DNA of 64,000 nucleotides, taken from assembly GCF_964194155.1 (NCBI RefSeq), contig NC_135895.1, positions 97,960,001 to 98,024,000 of the forward strand, read 5' to 3'. Both the position numbers and the translations under genes were made by a program. Shown one piece after another: positions 18,255-61,030 of the stretch (its first letter is position 1; every line of letters begins with the position of its first letter). The notes beneath the pieces are model-generated. The model did not search any database. It was not told the origin of the DNA and saw only the letters and a list, made by a program, of their open reading frames with translations. This DNA is from Cetorhinus maximus. Its lineage: Eukaryota.

Positions 18255-18390
18255 AACAATTGGTGATCGACTGGGAGAAGCTAAAGCTAGTGGTAACCTT
18301 GGCAATACTTTCAAGGTTTTGGGGCGCTTTGATGAAGCAGTCGTTTGCTGTCAAAGACATCTGGACATTTCCAGAGAACTCTGTGATAAG
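18255..18390 (+). CDS. GPSM2: GPSM2 coding exon 3 (TIGDRLGEAKASGNLGNTFKVLGRFDEAVVCCQRHLDISRELCDK)
   Basis: TPR with LGN motif. TTTCAG acceptor, AAG|GTAGT donor, 136 nt, phases consistent. Confidence 0.96.
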
Positions 18391-18514
18391 GTAGTGGTTA
18401 GCAAAGAATTCAATATAAAAACAAAAAACTACTGCGGATGCTGGAAATCCAAAACAAAAACAGAATTACCTGGAAAAACTCAGCAGGTCTGGCAGCATCG
18501 GTGGAGAAGATAAG

Positions 18515-18553
18515 AGTTGACGTTTCGAGTCTTCGTGACCCTTCAACAGAACT
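18515..18553 (-). ncRNA. Minimal type I hammerhead ribozyme motif
   Basis: AGUU-CUGUUGA-A-GGGUC acgaa GACUC-GAAAC-GUC-AACU: stems I and II, GUC cleavage triplet, short palindromic stem III. Confidence 0.7.
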
Positions 18554-19103
18554 GAGTATAGTTAGGGGAGGGGTGAAATATAAGCTGGTTTAAGGCTGGT
18601 GGGGGGTGGGGGGTGGGGGGGGGTGGGGGAGAGAAGTTGAGGGTGGGGTGGTTGTAGGGACAAGCAAGCAGTGATAGGAGCAGAAAATCAAAAGATGTCA
18701 CAGACAATCAAAAGGTGTCACAGACAAAAGGATCAAAGAGGTGTTGAAGGTGGTGATATTATCTAAGAAAATGTGCTAATTAAGAATGGATGGCAGGACA
18801 CTCAACGTACAGCTCTAGTGGGGGCGGGGTGGAAAGACTGACAAGGTATTAGTTGTAGATTTAAAAGTAATGGAAATATGTGGGAAAAGAAAAATCTATA
18901 TAAATTATTGAAAAACACAAAAGGGAGGGGGAAGAAACGGGGTAGGGATGGGAGGATGGAGTTTAAGATCTAAATTTGTTGAATTCAATATTCAGCCCGG
19001 AAGGCTGTAAAGTGCCTAGTCCCTATAACCACCCCACCCTCAACTTCTCTCTCCCCCCCCCGCCTTAAACCATTTATATTTCACCTCTCCCCTAACTATA
19101 CTC

Positions 19104-19142
19104 AGTTCTGTTGAAGGGTCATGAAGACTCGAAACGTCGACT
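19104..19142 (+). ncRNA. Minimal type I hammerhead ribozyme motif, in sense with GPSM2 pre-mRNA
   Basis: AGUU-CUGUUGA-A-GGGUC augaa GACUC-GAAAC-GUC-GACU. Predicted cleavage after C19138. Confidence 0.7.
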
Positions 19143-19580
19143 CTTTTCTTCTCCACCGATGCTGCCAGACCTGCTGAGTTTTTCCAGGTAATTCTGTTTT
19201 TGTTAAGAATTCAATATGCTTGATCGTAATTCACTTGCTAACCATTTTTTCTGTGCCTTTTGTGATCAGTTGCTTTAGCATATTCTGCAATATTACTTTG
19301 CCAATGAAATGTTAATACATCCAATCATAATTCTAAAGACTCAGTGGGTAATTGCACTGAGCATTGGGACACTGAGTCATGGAGACCAAGAAGTTCTCAG
19401 TGCTAACTGAGCAGATCTGAACTGGGCAGTGATGGGGACACTACATTTGGGTTTATTCTATCCTGTTCATTTCCCCCACTTTTCCAGCACAGTTTCAATT
19501 ACATAGCCCTTTTCAGTGTTCTAATTTTTATGTTGTTGTTTATCCTTCATGATCAGTGCTCTGAATTCCTGCATTCCCAT

Positions 19581-20440
19581 GGGCTGAATTTTCTGGCTGG
19601 TGGTGCGGGCGTGGATCCGATCGCCGCCCGCGATCGGGTCCGTGCTGCCATTTTATGTGGGCGGGCCAATTAAGGCCTGCCCAGTGTGAATCGTGGCTCC
19701 CGAGAACAGCGGGAGTGGGCGGGCGGCGGCGGGTCTGCAATGACTGCCAGGTCCAATGGCGACCCAGCGGCCTGATTTAAAAAAAAAATTGCTGCAGCCT
19801 TTCCAAGACTGCGAATTATGGCCAGAGCACTGCTAGTGAGCAGGCCAGGCAGGAGGGTAGGGCAGGTGGGCACTGTGCCCCTTGTTTTTCCAATGATTGA
19901 TTGCCTTGCTGCCCTCCTCGAGGAGGTGGCAGCACGGTGGGAGGTCCTGGTACCCCAGGACAGGAGGACGAGGCCCCCCCCACATGACCAAACGTGCCTG
20001 GGAGGAGGTGGCAAAGGTGGTGAGCTCCCATGACGTGGTGTGACGCACCTGGATCTAAGTTTGCAAGCGCTTTAACAATTTGTTGCGTTCAGGAAGGGTG
20101 AGTACCATGTTGGCATTGGCTACTTTACCCAGCCGGTAGGCTTTCCCCCGTGCTTCCTTCTCCACCCCCTTCCCCCTCCCCAAGTCTGAGTGTATGACTG
20201 CATTGAATCAGTGACGGCATGTGTCCTTCGCTGGGTGGGCTGGCAGATATTGCCCATGCCGAGGTCAGCCTGAGAGGGTGGTGAAGAGATGAGTTCTGCC
20301 CCCCGCAGCATGTTGTACACTGAGACCCACATTACTGTTTTGGGGGCAACCTGGAGGAGCTGCACCTAGGCGCAGTGCTGGAACTCCAGGTCATGTCAAA
20401 GTCAGGGTGATGACATGCTAGGAGGGGAGCTTCAAGTTGG
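19581..20440 (+). mobile_element. Harbinger terminal fragment with the first exon of the Myb/SANT gene, truncated where a CR1 begins
   Basis: TIR GGGCTGAATTTT, subterminal palindrome, CLAALLEEVAARWEVLVP..WEEVA..RFNNLLRSGR, donor GTGAGT at 20098. Homologous to 11890-12353 reversed. Confidence 0.8.
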
Positions 20441-20444
20441 CGTG

Positions 20445-23165
20445 GCTCCTATTCAAATAATCATCTAATACCCTCTTGAATGCCTCGATTGAACCTGCCT
20501 CAACCACACTTGCCCACTCCACCAACTTGCCTATGTCCTCTTGAAGTTCCGCACCGTCGACCTCACAGTTCACAACACTCCCAAACTTCGTATCATCCGC
20601 AAATTTGAAATTGTCTCCTGCACACCAAGGACAGAATTTTCCCCCCGACGGGGGGGATGTTGATGGGCTGGCGCATGCGGGCGCACTTCCGATAGGCGGC
20701 GCCATTTTACGTTGGCGGGCCAATTAAGGCCCGCCCAGTGTGACGTCCGCAGGGGAGCACATAGTGCTATGCGCTCCCTGTGCGGGTGGGGGGGATCTCC
20801 TGAAAACAAGAGTGTGCCCTTTTGCGCATGCGCATGAAAGAGCACACTCATCTCCCTGAGACTAAGTGCTGCCTCAGGGAGATCGGCTCTACTTGCAACA
20901 ATATTAAAAATAGAAAAAAAAAATTCCCTTACATGTCCCCACATGTGACATGTTCATAATTTCCATAACAACTTTACTAAAATTTTTAAAACTCTACATG
21001 AAACCTCATCCCGCCGGTGGATGAGGTTTCATGTTTTTTCTAGTTGCTGCCGGGGCTCCTGGCCTGACCGCCAACATTATGGTTGGACGGGCAGGTCCTT
21101 TAATTGCTGAATTGACCATTGACAGGTCGGTGGGCACACAGCTAATTTTGCTGCGCCCCCGCCTTCCTGAAAATTTAAATGGGGTGGGGTGACATCGAGA
21201 GTTCCGCCCAACGTCATCCCACGTCGGTGAGTGGGCCCTGCCCCCGCTCGCCGACGGTAAATCCTGCCCCAAGACCTAGATCGTTAATATATATCATGAG
21301 AAGCAAGGACCCCAATACCGACCCCATGGGAACTCCACTACAAACCTTCCTCCAGCCTGAAAAATACCCATTGACCATTACTCTCTGCTTCCTGTTTTTC
21401 AGCCAATTTTGCATCCCTGTTGCTACTGTCCCTTTTATTCCATGAGCAATAACTTTTCTCACAAGTTTGTTGTGTGGCACTGTATCAAATGCCTTTTGAA
21501 AGTCCATGTGCAGCACACCAACAGAATTACCCTCATCGACCTTTTCTGTTACGTCTTCAAAAAAAACTCCAAGTTAGTTAAACATGATTTCCCCTTTAGA
21601 AATCCATGCTGACTCTTCCTTATCAATCCATATTTTTCTATGTGACTACCAATTCTATCCCAAATAATTGTTTATAGCGTCTTGCCCACCATTGAAGTTA
21701 AACTGACTGGTCTGTAATTGCTGGGCTTATCCTGACAACTTTTTTTGAACAAGGGTGCAATGTTTGCAATTCTTCAGTCCTCTGGCACCACCCCTGAGTC
21801 TAGGGAAGACTGAAAGATTATGGCCAGTGCCCCTGCAATTTCTGCTCACATCCTTCAATATCCTTGGATGCATCTCATCCGGTCCCGGTGCTTTGTCAAC
21901 TTTTAAGTATCGACAGTCTATTCAGCACTTCCTCCTTATCAATTTTGAAGTCTTCTAGTGACAGAGTTTCCTCATCTGTCACCATAGCCTGGGTAGCATC
22001 TACCTCCTTGGTAAAGATGGATACAAAATATTCATTTAGTACTTCAGCCATGGCCCCTCCGCCCATGTGTAAATTCCCTTTTAGGTCCCTAATTGGCCCT
22101 ACTCTTTTTACCACCCTTTTACTGTTTATATGCCTATAGAAGACTTTGGGATTCCACTTTATGTTGGCTGCCAGTCTTTTCTCATAATGCCTCTTTGCTT
22201 CTCTAATATGCTTTTTTACCTCCCCTCTGAACCTTCTGTATTCCTCTTGGTTCTCAATTGTATTTTCTAACTGACACCTGTCATAAGCGCACTTTTTCTT
22301 CTTTATCTTAATTTCATCTCCTTTTCATTTAGGGAGCTCTGGATTTATTTGCCCTACCTTTCCCTTTTGATGGGATATACTTTGACTGCCCAAACCAATT
22401 CTTTTTTGAAGGTAGCCCGTCGTTCAGCTACAGCTTTTCCCAACAGTCTTTCGTTCCAGTCTATCTGGCCCAGCTCCATTCTTGCCCCATTGAAGTCGGC
22501 TTTAGTCCGGTTATTCTTACTCTGGATTGCCTATCGTCCTTTTCTATCATCATTCTAAAACGTACAATGCAATGATCACTGTCTGCTAAATGTTCCCCCA
22601 CTGACACACTTTATCTACTTGGTCCACCTCATTTACAAGAACCAGTTCCAACAGTGTGTCTTTTCTTGTTGGATTGGGCACCTACTGCTGTAGAAAATTC
22701 TCCTGAACACGATCTAGGAACTTTTGCCCCTCTCCTTTACACTACCACTGTCCCAGTCTACATTTGGGTAATTAAAGTCACCCATTATAACTGCTCTTTA
22801 ATGCTTGCACCTCTCCGTAATTTCTCTGCAGATTTGTTCTTCTATGTCTTTCTCACTGTTTGGTGGTCTATAAACTACACCGAGCAATGTAATTGCACCC
22901 TTTTTGTTCCTTAGCTGTAGCCAAATTGATTCTGTCCTTGAACTCTCTGGGCCATCCTCTTTCTCCAGCACTGCAATGCTCTCCTTAACCAATACCTCCA
23001 CCCCTCCTCCTTTCCTTCCTTTCCTATCTTTTCTGAACACCTTGTACCCGGGAATATTTAACATCCAGTTCTGTCCTTCCTTGTGCCAGGTCTCTGTTAT
23101 CACAGCAACATCATATTTCCACATGGCAGTCTGCGTCTGTAACTCCCCAGTCTTATTTACTATTT
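20445..23165 (-). mobile_element. CR1 LINE (endonuclease + RT), interrupted by a MITE
   Basis: YDVAVITETW, VYRPPN, DFQKAFD, GVPMGSVLG, FADDTK motifs. Its 5' end lies about 50 bp from the exon 4 acceptor. Confidence 0.92.
20629..21269. mobile_element. Harbinger-family MITE, 641 bp, with 3-bp TSD CAA
   Basis: TIRs GGACAGAATTTTCC and GGTAAATCCTGCCC, with CAA on both sides. Removing the MITE plus one CAA rejoins the CR1 RT segment INDLGLG|VQETIS next to FADDT. Confidence 0.88.
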
Positions 23166-23217
23166 TGTAGCTGACTATTACTTATTTTGAATTTGTTTTT
23201 GTGTTTATAAAAAACAG

Positions 23218-30106: not shown

Positions 30107-30516
30107 GCACCACTGATGGTGACTGACGGTTAACTGCCAAGCATTGTTTGAAATTTAAACCAGGTAGCTTGACCCTGATTGGTCAAGGCATAGACCTGAG
30201 GAATGAGTCAGCGAATGGCTGTCACTTGTTTTGTTTAGCTGAAACAGGCACAGTGCATGTACATGTTCTTTCTGTCTGCAAAGCACAGGGCCCTGTGAAT
30301 TAATATATGTAGTTTCCAGTACATGCAAATACACCACATTGCAAGCCCAACTGACAATCTTAAATTGGTTGTCAGCGTAATTCTTAGGACACTAGACAAC
30401 ATTTGCTCAACAATCCTCAATTGCAAAATCACATCTAATGTTGGACATTGTTTTGAGTTTTGCAAGCACGGGCTGGTTGGATATGGTTTGTACCCTGCCC
30501 ATTGCAAACAGCGGCT

Positions 30517-30652
30517 CTGAAGAAGAGTCATATGGACTCGAAACGTTAACTCTGTCTTTCTCTCCACAGATGCTCTTAGACCTGCTGAGTTTTTCCGGCA
30601 TTTTTTGTTTTTGTTTCAAATTTCAGCATCCGCAGTATTTTGCCATTATCTT
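30517..30652 (+). mobile_element. 136-bp solo Penelope tail starting at a hammerhead core, with 7-bp TSD AGCGGCT
   Basis: CTGAAGA-A-GAGTC atatg GACTC-GAAAC-GTT. TSD at 30510-30516 and 30653-30659. Confidence 0.75.
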
Positions 30653-51984: not shown

Positions 51985-53192
51985 ATAAAAACTGAAGGTG
52001 CTGGAAATACTCAGCGGGTCTGGCAGTATCTGTGGAGAGAGAAACAGTTTCCAGTTGAATGTGACTCTTCTTCAGAACTGAAGAAAGAAGATAGAAATGT
52101 GATGGGTTTTATGCTGTTGAGGGGTGGGTAGAAAGAGCTAACGGGTAGAGGGAAGAAGAGATTAAATGACACAAATGTCACGGAGCAAAACGCAAAGGGA
52201 GTGGTAAGGTTGCAATAAAGAAACAAAGCATTTGTGCAGAGTGAGTGTGAATAGCAGGATAATGAACATCTGTGCCTGAAAGCAGAAGCATGAAAAAACA
52301 AAATTAAGACCAGCACATGGCAAAAAAAACAGAATTAAAATGGGGGATAGAGTACATGGTCTGAAATATTTGAACTCAATACTGAGTCCAGAAGGCTGTA
52401 AAGTGCCCTAATCAGAAGATGAGGTGCTGTTCCTTGAGCTTGCGTTGAGTTTCACTGGTACACTGCAGCAGGTTGAGGACAGAAATGTGGGGGTGAGAGC
52501 GAGGTGGTGAATTAAAATGGCAAGCAACCAGAAGCTCAAGGCTACGCTGGGTTGGGGTGGGAGTGGGTGGTGGTGTGCTAAGCAGAGGTGTTCCGCAAAG
52601 TGGTCTCACTTGTGTAGAGGGGACTGCATTGTGAGCAGTGAATACGGTATACTAAATTGAAAGAAGTGCAAGTAAAATGCTGCTTCACCTGGAAGGAGTA
52701 TTTAGTGTCTTGGACAATGAGAGAGGAGGTAAAAGGGCAGGTGTTACAACTCCTCCAATTGTATGGGAAGGGGACGAGGTGTTGGGGGTGATTGGAAAGT
52801 GGACCAGGTGTTGTGGAGAAAACAATACCTTTGGACTGCTGACAGGGGAGGGGAGGGAAGATGTGTTTGGTGGTGGCGTCGTGCTGGACATGGCAGAAAT
52901 GATGGAGGACGATCCATTGAATGGGGAGGCTGGTGGGGTAGAAAGTGAGGACAAGGGGAACACAATAGCAGTTCTGGGAGGGAAGGGAAGAGAGATCAGA
53001 AATGCGGGAAATGGGTCAGACACGGTTGAGGGTCCCATCAACCATGGCTGGGGTGGTGGGAATCCTCAGTTGAGGGAAAAGGAAGTCATATTTGAAGTGC
53101 TATTGTGGAGGTTTGAGTCATCAGAATAGATGTGATGGAGGCAGAGGAACTGGGAGAATGCTTTTGGATGTTTTTATTTCAGATTTACAGCT
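51985..53192 (-). mobile_element. Penelope-like element 3' portion with a short inverted tail
   Basis: VACHFNSPP.SH..SVL.LL.C.SE.QRKL.EQHLIF. Eroded hammerhead at 52045-52080 (CTGAAGAAGAGTC on the minus strand). Inverted tail TTTTTATTTCAGATTTACAGC near 53170. Confidence 0.78.
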
Positions 53193-58294: not shown

Positions 58295-61030
58295 ATATGA
58301 GCATACGAATTAGGAGCTGGAGTAGGCCATTTGGCCCAGTGACTCTGTTCCGCTATTTGATGAGATGGTTGGTGTGAGTGTGGCCTCAACTCTACTTTCC
58401 TGTCTACCCTCTCTAAGCTGTGACTCCTTGTTAATCAAGAATCTATCTATCTTGGTCTTAAAAATTTTCAACAACCCTGCCTCCACTGCACACTAAATTT
58501 CTCCTCGTGTCCATCTTAAATGGGAGACCCCTAATTTTTAAACTGTGTCCCTGAGTTCTAGTATCTCCCACAGGGGGAAACATTATCCTCTCTGCATCGA
58601 CCCTGTCAAGTTCCTCAGGATCTTATGTTTCAAAAGATCCCCTCTTATTCTTCTAAACTCCAATGGGTCTAGGTCCAACCTGCTCAACCTTTCCTCATAA
58701 GATAGCTCCTTCATCCCAGAAATCAGTTGACTGAACGTTCTAAACTTTGAACTGCTTCTAATGCAATTATATATGCCCTAAGTAAGGATACCAAAACTGT
58801 ACACAGTACTCTAGATGTGGTCTCACCAATGACTGGTTGGTACGACTGTCCTACTTTTAAAACAAAAACAAAAATACCTGGAAAAACTCAGCAGGTCTGG
58901 CAGCATCTGTGGAAGGGAGCACGGTTAACGTTTCGAGTCCACATGACTCTTCAACAGGACTAAGGAAAAATAGAAAAGGGGTGAAATATAAGCTGGTTTA
59001 AGGTGGGAGGGTGCGGTTGGGACAAGAGAGCTGGATAGAGGGCCAGTGATAGGTGGAGACAACCAAAAGATGTCACAGACAAAAGGACAAAGAGGTGTTG
59101 AAGGTGGTTATATTAACTAAAGGAATGTGTTAATTAAGGGTAGAAAGCAGGACAAGCAAGGTACAGATAGCCCTAGTGGGGGTGGGGTGGGGTGAAGGAA
59201 TCGAAAAAGGCTAAGAGGTAGAGATAAAACAATGGATGGAAATACATTTAAAAATAATGGAAATAGGTGGGAAAAGAAAAATCTATATAAATTATTGGAA
59301 AAAACAAAAAGGAAGGGGAAAAATCAGAAAGGGGGTGGGGATGGAGGAGAGAGTTCATGATCTAAAATTGTTGAACTCAATATTCAGCCCGAAAGGCTGT
59401 AAAGTACCAAGTCGGAAGATGAGGTGCTGTTCCTCCAGTTTGCGTTGAGCTTCACTGGAACAATGCAGCAAGCCAAGGACGGACATGTGGGCATGAGAGC
59501 AGGGTGGAGTGTTGAAATGGCAAGCGACAGGGAGGTCTGGGCAATGCTTGCTCCCTACTTTTAAACTCTCTTCCCCTTGCAATAAGTGCCAACATTTCAT
59601 TTATCTTCCTAATTACTTGCAGTACCTGCATACCAAGTTTTTGTGATTTGTGTACCAGGACAAACAGATCCCTCTGTACTTCAGAGTTCTGCAAAATCTC
59701 TCCATTTAAATAATATATTGCTTTACTGTTCTTCTTGCCAAAGTGGACAAGTTCACATTTTCCTATATTTGTACTCCAACTGCCAAAATTGGTGCACTTC
59801 ACCTATCTATATCCCTTTGCGGACCACTTATGTCCTCTTCAGAACCTACTTTCCTATCTTTGTGTCATCAACAAATTTGGCAACCAAATTTTCCAAGTTG
59901 TTGATATAGATTGTAAGGAATTGAGCCCTGGCTCTGATCCCTGTGGCACTCCACTTGCCAACCTAAAAATGACCCATTTATCCCTGCCCTATGCTTCCTG
60001 TTAGCTAACCATTCCTCTATCTATGCTAATATGTTATTCCGTACCTCATGAGCTCTTACCTTGTGAAGTAACCTTTGATTTGGCACCTTATCAAATGCCT
60101 TTTGGAAATCTAAGTACAGCACATCTACAGGTTCCCCTTTATCCATGTTGCTTGTTACTTCCTCAAAGAACTTGAAGAAATTAGTCGAACACAAATTCCC
60201 TTCCACAAAACCATGTTGACTCTGCTTGATTTCATTAAGATTTTCTAATTGCCCTTCCATAACATGCTTAGTAATAGATTCTAGCATTTTCCCTTTGTCA
60301 GATGTGAGGGTAACTAGCATGTAGTTTCCTGTCACCCTCCTTTCTTGAATAGAGGAGTTATATTCACTATTTTCCAATCCGATCTGACCTTTCCAGATCT
60401 AGGGAATGCTGGAAAATTACAGCTAATGCATCTACTGTCTCTGCAGCCACTTCTTTGAAGACTCTAGGATGCTGATCATCAGGCCCTGGGGGCTAATTAG
60501 ACTTTAGTTCTAATAGTTTTCTCAGTACCCTTTCCCTGGTGATTGTAATTGTTTTGAGTTCCTCTTTTTCCCTTTCACCCCTTGATTTGCATGTATTTCT
60601 GGGATGTTATTTGTGCCGTCACAGCAGACACAAAATATTTGTTCGCACTCCCACAGTTTCCTCATTTTCCATTATTAATTCCCCATCCTCACTCTCTAGA
60701 GGACGAATGCTCCCTTTGATTACTTTTTTCCATTTTAAGTACTTGTAGAAACTCTTACCATCTGTTTTTATATTTCTAGCTAGTTTTCTCTCATACTATA
60801 ATTACTCCCTTTTTTTTGTTAGTCATTATTTACTGGTTTTCGACTCCTGTCCAATTTTCTACCACTAATTTTTCACAGAACTGTTTTTTCAATTTCATAC
60901 TATCTTTAACTTCCTTCGTTAGCCACGGATGGTGCATCCTTCTGCTAGAGTCTTTCTTTCTCACTGGAATGTATCTTTGCTCAGTTTTATGAAATATCTC
61001 CTTAAATAGAAGATACTTCATATCTCCTAT
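58295..61030 (-). mobile_element. CR1 LINE fragment with a nested Penelope insertion
   Basis: QHGFV.G, YLDFQKAFDKVP, QRDL.VLVH motifs. Tail at 58295-58340. Confidence 0.88.
58862..59553 (-). mobile_element. 5'-truncated Penelope-like element with 12-bp TSD CCTACTTTTAAA
   Basis: TSD at 58850-58861 and 59554-59565. ORF end QRKLEEQHLIFRLGTLQP.GLNIEFNNF. Hammerhead-like motif at 58923-58961. Same family as 18417-19204. Confidence 0.88.

What the first reader, a model, noticed from the sequence alone, without database searches (positions are those of the whole stretch)
18404..19217. Two-headed hammerhead element: inverted-repeat Penelope derivative 26 bp downstream of a GPSM2 splice donor
Seen: a 788-bp insert with a perfect 13-bp TSD and inverted arms of about 190-200 bp. 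Each arm carries a 39-nt hammerhead motif with a GUC triplet, so there is one on each strand, and the copy at 19104-19142 is in the GPSM2 pre-mRNA sense. Established: Penelope-like elements carry minimal type I hammerheads with palindromic stem III, thought to cleave as dimers, and often integrate with inverted terminal segments. Inference: in the pre-mRNA the upstream antisense arm is transcribed first and could pair with and silence the sense ribozyme. The long hairpin beside the exon 3 donor could also be an ADAR substrate or affect splicing.
Basis: partly seen in the sequence, partly recalled or inferred. Interest (0 to 1): 0.7.

Follow-up and report, generated by a model that had tools for sequence, protein, structure and literature searches.

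The report
Ordinary back-to-back Penelope stub in GPSM2
This 788-base mirror-image insert beside a GPSM2 splice site is one of many thousands of similar stubs of a Penelope-type jumping gene in this genome; its hammerhead motif lacks a normally fixed core letter and is predicted to be buried in a hairpin, so it likely neither cuts nor regulates the gene.

Summary
The anatomy is real: 788-bp insert, 13-bp direct repeats, inverted arms about 96% alike, one hammerhead motif per strand, 26 nt past a GPSM2-type donor. It is the textbook insertion form of a Penelope-like element (Neptune type): a 5'-truncated 3' end plus an inverted shorter copy, a 36-nt tail on one side only. The family has at least 54,749 arms here; 44 of 100 sampled arms sit in such two-headed units, modal TSD 14 bp, 43 of 44 pairing a tailed with a tail-less end. 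Copies show no excess of ends at the scissile bond (2.2% loss against 1.9% control) but pile up at the motif's 5' edge. Three runs of two related species lack the insert and also most of the "TSD", so gain or loss is unresolved. No RNA data. The scan has reported both the inverted form and the U6 core before, in this and other genomes. Ordinary locus; modest family-level interest.

The parts
18256..18390 (+). GPSM2-type TPR-coding exon (host gene); donor AAG|GTAGTG at 18390/18391; intron runs to 23217
   Evidence: exon and donor are shared with related species B and C
18404..18416 (+). left copy of the 13-bp target-site duplication
   Evidence: family TSDs 9-16 bp, mode 14
18417..19021 (-). 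long arm: 5'-truncated 3' end of a Neptune-type Penelope-like element (end of ORF, 3' UTR/pLTR, hammerhead, tail)
   Evidence: 81-90% identical over its length to other copies that continue into GIY-YIG and RT coding sequence
18417..18452 (-). 36-nt tail, present on this arm only
18515..18553 (-). minimal hammerhead motif, core CUGUUGA (U6), antisense to GPSM2
18963..19021 (-). last codons of the GIY-YIG endonuclease (LGTLQPSGLNIEFNKFRS, stop)
19019..19021 (.). inner head-to-head junction with 3-nt microhomology (GTC) shared by both arms
   Evidence: 54 of 61 family copies read TTCCGACTAGGCACT at this point
19019..19204 (+). short arm: inverted, tail-less 3' 186 nt of the same element, in GPSM2 sense
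19073..19107 (+). TATA-like (19073-19081) and initiator-like TCAGTT (19102-19107) motifs; inferred start of the element's RNA
   Evidence: sequence; 18 of 50 sampled 5' ends fall at 19103-19109; motif names recalled
19104..19142 (+). minimal hammerhead motif: stem I 4 bp (one G-U), core CUGUUGA + extra A, stem II 5 bp, GAAA, palindromic ACGU, C17 = 19138
19205..19217 (+). right copy of the 13-bp target-site duplication

Best explanation
The insert is a dead-on-arrival stub of a very abundant Neptune-type Penelope-like retrotransposon, likely made when the element's enzyme cut both target strands 13 bp apart and copied the RNA's 3' end from each nick, and it is likely neutral for GPSM2. Shown: two 5'-truncated 3' ends of one family sit head to head between direct repeats, one with the 36-nt tail and one without, joined at a 3-nt microhomology, as in most two-headed copies sampled. 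Inferred: the two nicks primed at the two internal start sites that bound the tail, and the two cDNAs were joined at the microhomology. Predicted: in the pre-mRNA the arms form a 186-bp hairpin that buries the sense hammerhead and a donor-like site at 19188 and leaves the true donor outside it. Inferred: the motif does not cut here, because it needs a same-sense partner, lacks A6 and is paired away.
For: Copy number: 23,065 exact hammerhead-pattern matches, 54,749 of a 33-mer behind it, controls 0. Form: 44 of 100 consecutive arms on contig 1 have an inverted partner end and a TSD of 9 nt or more within the fetched flank, 29 distinct TSDs (one is element-derived and probably false), 43 of 44 tail+/tail-; unit lengths 93-945 nt there and up to 3.1 kb. 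Coding relatives: RVT_1 E 1.2e-5 (25.6 bits, below the 29.6 cut-off) and GIY-YIG 24.1 bits (above 22.6) with a CxxxxCxxC linker. Literature: inverted 5'-truncated copy and one-sided 30-40-bp tail (PMC8557442, passages; PMC3846280, passages); paired min-HHRs on opposite strands 100-700 bp apart, no monomer cleavage (PMC4209133, parts 1-2 of 4); both strands cut and extended, two RT start sites bounding the tail, ribozyme mutants still insert (PMC11167929, parts 1-2 of 4). A6C lowers cleavage in Mg2+ by orders of magnitude (PMC7151607, passages; PMC3088659, passages). No excess of copy ends at the scissile bond: 16,190 of 16,553 (2.2% lost) against 16,242 of 16,553 (1.9% lost) for two internal bases. 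The donor sequence GTAGTGGTTA is the same in relatives without the insert.
Against: Neutrality is argued from abundance, not measured. The hairpin starts 62 nt from a donor with only 6 of 11 consensus matches, and the short arm carries a 9-of-11 donor-like site. The core minus position 6 is conserved across subfamilies, with pair-keeping changes in stems I and II, so the motif is probably under selection in the element. The A6 data are for C6 in other ribozymes; U6 is untested. The empty allele in B and C lacks 12 nt of the expected target, so the TSD is not confirmed by an empty site, and loss in B and C is as possible as gain here. The arms differ at 6 of 144 sites and share only minority, not private, variants, so a single RNA template is not shown.
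Confidence: 0.8

Rival explanations
1. The hairpin changes GPSM2 processing: it is edited by ADAR and shifts use of the weak donor at 18391 or exposes an 82-nt cryptic exon (acceptor-like CAG at 19105, donor-like GT at 19188) that would frameshift the mRNA.
For: 186-bp near-perfect duplex predicted 62 nt from the donor; native donor 6/11, element donor-like site 9/11 consensus matches; branch/pyrimidine/AG-like run before 19106. Two related species lack the insert together with flanking bases, which could be a later loss.
Against: Both element sites are predicted paired at 0.99 and the native donor lies outside the arm duplex. About 15,000 two-headed units (28-29 per 100 arms x 54,749) would put some tens within 30 bp of a donor by chance, if the genome has about 200,000 introns (assumed). 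Some editing is likely for any such duplex and would not show function.
Confidence: 0.1
2. The sense hammerhead is a slow but working ribozyme that cuts the GPSM2 intron after C19138 as an intermolecular dimer or with help from the element's protein, and the upstream arm acts as its off-switch.
For: All core positions but 6 are intact, ACGU palindrome, C17, stems kept; PLE hammerheads cut as dimers at low rates and with protein help (PMC4209133, PMC11167929); C6 variants cut in Mn2+ (PMC7151607).
Against: U6 core; no same-strand partner in the unit; the antisense arm is made first and pairs at -76 kcal/mol over the motif alone; the motif folds no better than shuffles (z 0.27); no cut-site excess among about 16,500 copies (1 of the 4 losses among the first 100 listed was a junction at the cut).
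Confidence: 0.06
3. The unit is a non-autonomous element in its own right (MITE- or retrozyme-like) that moves as a fixed two-headed cassette.
For: Inverted arms, TSD, many relatives.
Against: Unit lengths and inner junctions differ from copy to copy; none of the other loci repeats this 599+186 arrangement; no head-to-tail tandem of the short unit here.
Confidence: 0.03

Closest known systems
EN+ Penelope-like element insertions with inverted 5'-truncated copy and one-sided tail (PMC8557442 Fig. 2 legend; Adineta Pen2a, PMC3846280)
   Same: Head-to-head 3' ends, tail of 30-40 bp at one end, TSD round the whole unit, hammerhead in the pLTR, RT plus C-terminal GIY-YIG in longer copies, Zn-finger-like linker as in Neptune.
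   Different: Only 59 nt of ORF remain; TSD 13-14 bp against 8-10 bp in the rotifer examples; clade placed by motif, no tree built.
Minimal hammerheads (min-HHR) of metazoan PLEs (Cervera and De la Pena 2014, PMC4209133)
   Same: Type I, short stem I, extra base after A9, G10.1-C11.1, palindromic stub of stem III; pairs on opposite strands 100-700 bp apart already noted there.
   Different: Position 6 is U here and U or C in over 99% of the family's matching copies; no such core was found in the parts and supplements I could search.
Poseidon element of Anolis (PAc), in vitro (PMC11167929)
   Same: Two RT start sites that bound the tail, cutting and extension of both strands, AT-rich target; explains one tailed and one tail-less end.
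   Different: Other clade; in PAc the ORF starts inside the hammerhead, here the long frame starts about 40 nt behind the tail.
Natural C6 hammerhead of phage Bcep176 (PMC3088659, PMC7151607)
   Same: Natural loss of A6 with the rest of the core kept.
   Different: Single phage ribozyme with a full stem III, C6 not U6; activity measured there, not here.

Membership tests
EN+ Penelope-like element (Neptune type) | RT followed by C-terminal GIY-YIG endonuclease in the family | tested here: met
   (GIY-YIG above cut-off; RVT_1 significant but below cut-off); the insert holds the last codons
EN+ Penelope-like element (Neptune type) | CX2-5CxxC linker before the endonuclease | tested here: met
   CPRRRCNTC in copies L015, L016, L061; feature from PMC8557442
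EN+ Penelope-like element (Neptune type) | RT phylogeny places it in Neptune | not tested
   no tree built
EN+ Penelope-like element (Neptune type) | Inverted 5'-truncated copy with 30-40-bp tail at one end | tested here: met
   36-nt tail on left arm only; 43 of 44 arms
EN+ Penelope-like element (Neptune type) | TSD present once at the empty site | tested here: inconclusive
   direct repeat fits the family's 9-16-bp range, but B and C hold only its last 4 nt; no empty allele of this species seen
Minimal PLE hammerhead | Core CUGAnGA with A6 | tested here: not met
   CUGUUGA in both arms; A6 in 154, U6 in 13,528 of 23,065
Minimal PLE hammerhead | GAAA, A15.1-U16.1, H17, extra base after A9, G10.1-C11.1, palindromic 15.2-16.2 | tested here: met
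Minimal PLE hammerhead | Stems I and II with pair-keeping variation | tested here: met
   A/G opposite U at 19139 and G/A opposite U at 19117 across subfamilies; read by eye, no covariation statistic
Minimal PLE hammerhead | Same-sense partner for dimer formation in cis | tested here: not met
   the second copy is antisense; the next + strand motif in the window is 11 kb on and of another subfamily
Minimal PLE hammerhead | Self-cleavage | not testable with these tools
   indirect test negative: no excess of copy ends at the scissile bond
Rfam hammerhead families | Covariance-model match | tested here: not met
   0 hits at gathering score in 64 kb; no hammerhead among 9 hits at E<=10
Non-LTR retrozyme or MITE | Fixed unit copied as a whole, or head-to-tail tandem | tested here: not met
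   variable lengths and junctions

The most novel reading that the evidence does not exclude
This Penelope family spread to tens of thousands of copies after replacing the near-invariant A6 by U or C, and its insertions end at the motif's 5' edge, not at the cut site: the hammerhead fold is kept for a non-cleaving job at the start of the RNA (packaging or template handling), while each insertion is copied twice from the two start sites that bound the tail.
Probability: 0.3. Interest if true: 0.55.

Novelty: new member of a known kind. Interest (0 to 1): 0.2.

Why it matters
The locus itself matters little: it is one of an estimated 15,000 or more two-headed stubs. Two family-level points have value. 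The strict pairing of one tailed with one tail-less end supports priming from both nicks at two start sites, which links the in vitro result for the anole element to the long-known inverted PLE structure. And a successful family with a U6/C6 core and no cut-site footprint is a natural test of whether PLE hammerheads need to cut at all; searches that demand CUGAnGA, and Rfam, miss these motifs.

Tried and rejected
Rfam: no hammerhead at either threshold; the 9 weak hits are G/C-tract miRNA look-alikes far below their cut-offs. Run X1 gave no contig on the right flank, which proves nothing; the capture run X23 does not cover the flank. Cut-site footprint: the step just inside the cut lost 4.5% (17,016 to 16,242), but all 7 such losses among the first 100 listed were point changes in full-length motifs, not ends. 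Single-template test: arms share two minority variants held together by 10 of 81 other close copies, none private: inconclusive. A native PLE intron using the 19188 donor: no conserved acceptor before the ORF seen; dropped. The bacterial promoter scan does not apply to a eukaryote and was ignored. Lunse, Weinberg and Breaker 2016 (RNA Biol 14:1499), the most likely place for position-6 variants, is not held; I saw only its citation. One of the three supplement files of PMC4209133 could not be searched, and its alignments may be pictures. Paper searches for U6/C6 cores in PLE hammerheads, for shark Neptune elements and for shark intron hairpins and ADAR found no description; listings only.

Full report
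Observation. The window has AAGAATTCAATAT at 18404-18416 and 19205-19217 round a 788-bp insert. The right 186 nt (19019-19204) are the reverse complement of about 18453-18661, with 8 substitutions, a 22-nt gap in a C-tract and a 1-nt gap. Each arm has a hammerhead-like motif (19104-19142 on +, 18553-18515 on -) with GUC and C17 at 19138. The exon 18256-18390 matches GPSM2 at 40 of 45 residues (the PDB hits hold no GPSM1 TPR chain, so the paralogue call rests partly on recall). The intron runs 18391-23217.

What it is. The left 605 bp, read on the minus strand, are one continuous 3' end of a retroelement. They begin in the last codons of a GIY-YIG endonuclease and run through the 3' UTR, the hammerhead and a 36-nt tail. 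Longer copies carry an RT and a CxxxxCxxC linker before the endonuclease, the Neptune-type layout described in PMC8557442 (passages read). The right arm is the last 186 nt of the same element, inverted and without the tail. The arms meet at a 3-nt microhomology, 19019-19021.

How common. An exact hammerhead pattern occurs 23,065 times, a related subfamily pattern 17,422 times, a 33-mer behind the motif 54,749 times; reversed controls gave 0. I took the first 100 hits (first 4.4 Mb of contig 1) as a sample not chosen on the hammerhead. 44 of 100 have an inverted partner end and a direct repeat of 9 nt or more inside the fetched flank (700-1,450 nt, so a lower bound); 29 distinct repeats, one of them element-derived and probably false; mode 14 bp; 43 of 44 pair a tailed with a tail-less end. 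Scaled up this is about 15,000 units. It is in print: an inverted 5'-truncated copy and a one-sided 30-40-bp tail (PMC8557442, PMC3846280, passages), and hammerhead pairs on opposite strands 100-700 bp apart (PMC4209133, parts 1-2 of 4 read). The anole enzyme cuts and extends both strands and starts at two sites that bound the tail (PMC11167929, parts 1-2 of 4 read). I infer priming from both nicks, one at each start site, then joining at the microhomology. One RNA for both arms is not shown: they differ at 6 of 144 sites and share two minority variants that 10 of 81 other close copies also hold.

The ribozyme. Stem I (4 bp, one G-U), an extra A after A9, stem II (5 bp), GAAA, the ACGU palindrome and C17 are in place. 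Across 130 of 136 copies with the region intact, variation falls mostly on positions 6 and 7, loop II, position 17 and pair-keeping stem sites (many of these loci were chosen by a core pattern, so constancy there is partly forced; the unbiased set shows the same). But position 6 is U. Of 23,065 copies 154 have A6, 13,528 U6, and the remaining 9,383 are C or G, all C among the first 100 listed. In the unbiased sample 1 of 65 readable cores has A6. A6C cuts poorly in Mg2+ and better in Mn2+ (PMC7151607, PMC3088659, passages); U6 is untested. Minimal PLE hammerheads do not cut as monomers and cut weakly as dimers (PMC4209133). Here the only near partner is antisense and is transcribed first; folding puts 19100-19145 in the arm duplex with probability 0.99. 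Rfam does not see the motif.

Does the family's motif cut in vivo? Here, extending a pattern across the scissile bond loses 2.2% of copies (16,553 to 16,190), against 1.9% for two internal bases (16,553 to 16,242), which leaves room for about 1% of arms ending there, near the background of about 0.6% per base. The step just inside lost 4.5%, but the 7 cases checked were substitutions. In contrast 18 of the 50 5' ends that fall in 19075-19158 lie at 19103-19109 (binomial p 5e-8, window chosen after the fact), 29 nt behind a TATA-like run and on an initiator-like TCAGTT (names recalled). The simplest reading is run-off at the start of an uncut RNA. This bounds cleavage of templates; it does not exclude rare cleavage, which another note on this genome proposes and which I did not test.

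History at this site. Contigs of species B (runs X5, X9) and C (X15) join the exon directly to the right flank: 18371-18400, one T, then 19214 onward (X5 record 444 = 18400 and 442 = 19214; X15 463 and 465). A contig of species A (X1, possibly the source sample) runs from the flank into the element. So the insert is absent in B and C, but so are 12 nt of the expected target. Flanks differ by 28 of 1,082 bases from B and the arms by about 4% from each other, so the insertion is about as old as the split. Gain in A beside an independent small indel and imprecise loss in the B/C line both fit.

Effect on GPSM2. The native donor has 6 of 11 consensus matches and is the same in B and C; the short arm adds a 9-of-11 donor-like site at 19188 and an acceptor-like site at 19105, both predicted paired. 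Some editing of so long a duplex is plausible from general knowledge, but nothing here shows it or any splicing change. With about 15,000 units and an assumed 200,000 introns, some tens should lie within 30 bp of a donor by chance.

Verdict. Real, correctly described, ordinary as a locus: a new copy of a known kind. The family-wide loss of A6 and the lack of a cut-site footprint are the interesting parts; I found no paper on them, but the most relevant one was not available. The scan has noted the inverted form in 879 findings and the U6 core several times, also in this genome.

Noticed in passing
window 18406-18416 and 18981-18991: Eleven bases of the TSD (GAATTCAATAT) also occur inside the element, antisense to the ORF end; since relatives lack these bases, part of the 'target' may be element-derived filler or a look-alike target. 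Unexplained.
   Followed up: partly
window 58859-59413, 30516-30641, 52044, 52340-52407: Older Penelope copies of related subfamilies (71-81% identical); 58957 has a U6 core, 30517 an A6 core.
   Followed up: partly
window about 18025: Species B (run X5) has about 1.19 kb of extra sequence here that the window lacks (record 820 to 2008).
   Followed up: no
L081, G000:C3:194284000-194300000: Tandem array with 3.73-kb period of an A6-core Penelope subfamily; each unit also holds a frame that looks like the 3' end of an unrelated LINE (recalled resemblance).
   Followed up: no
L033, L046, L080, L156: Two-headed units cluster or nest within 1-2 kb of each other, each with its own TSD, which hints at repeated insertion near earlier copies.
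   Followed up: no
listing: The older AGAGTC subfamily mixes U6, A6 and a recurrent G6 core (CUGGUGA), so position 6 has taken all four bases in this genome's Penelope hammerheads.
   Followed up: no
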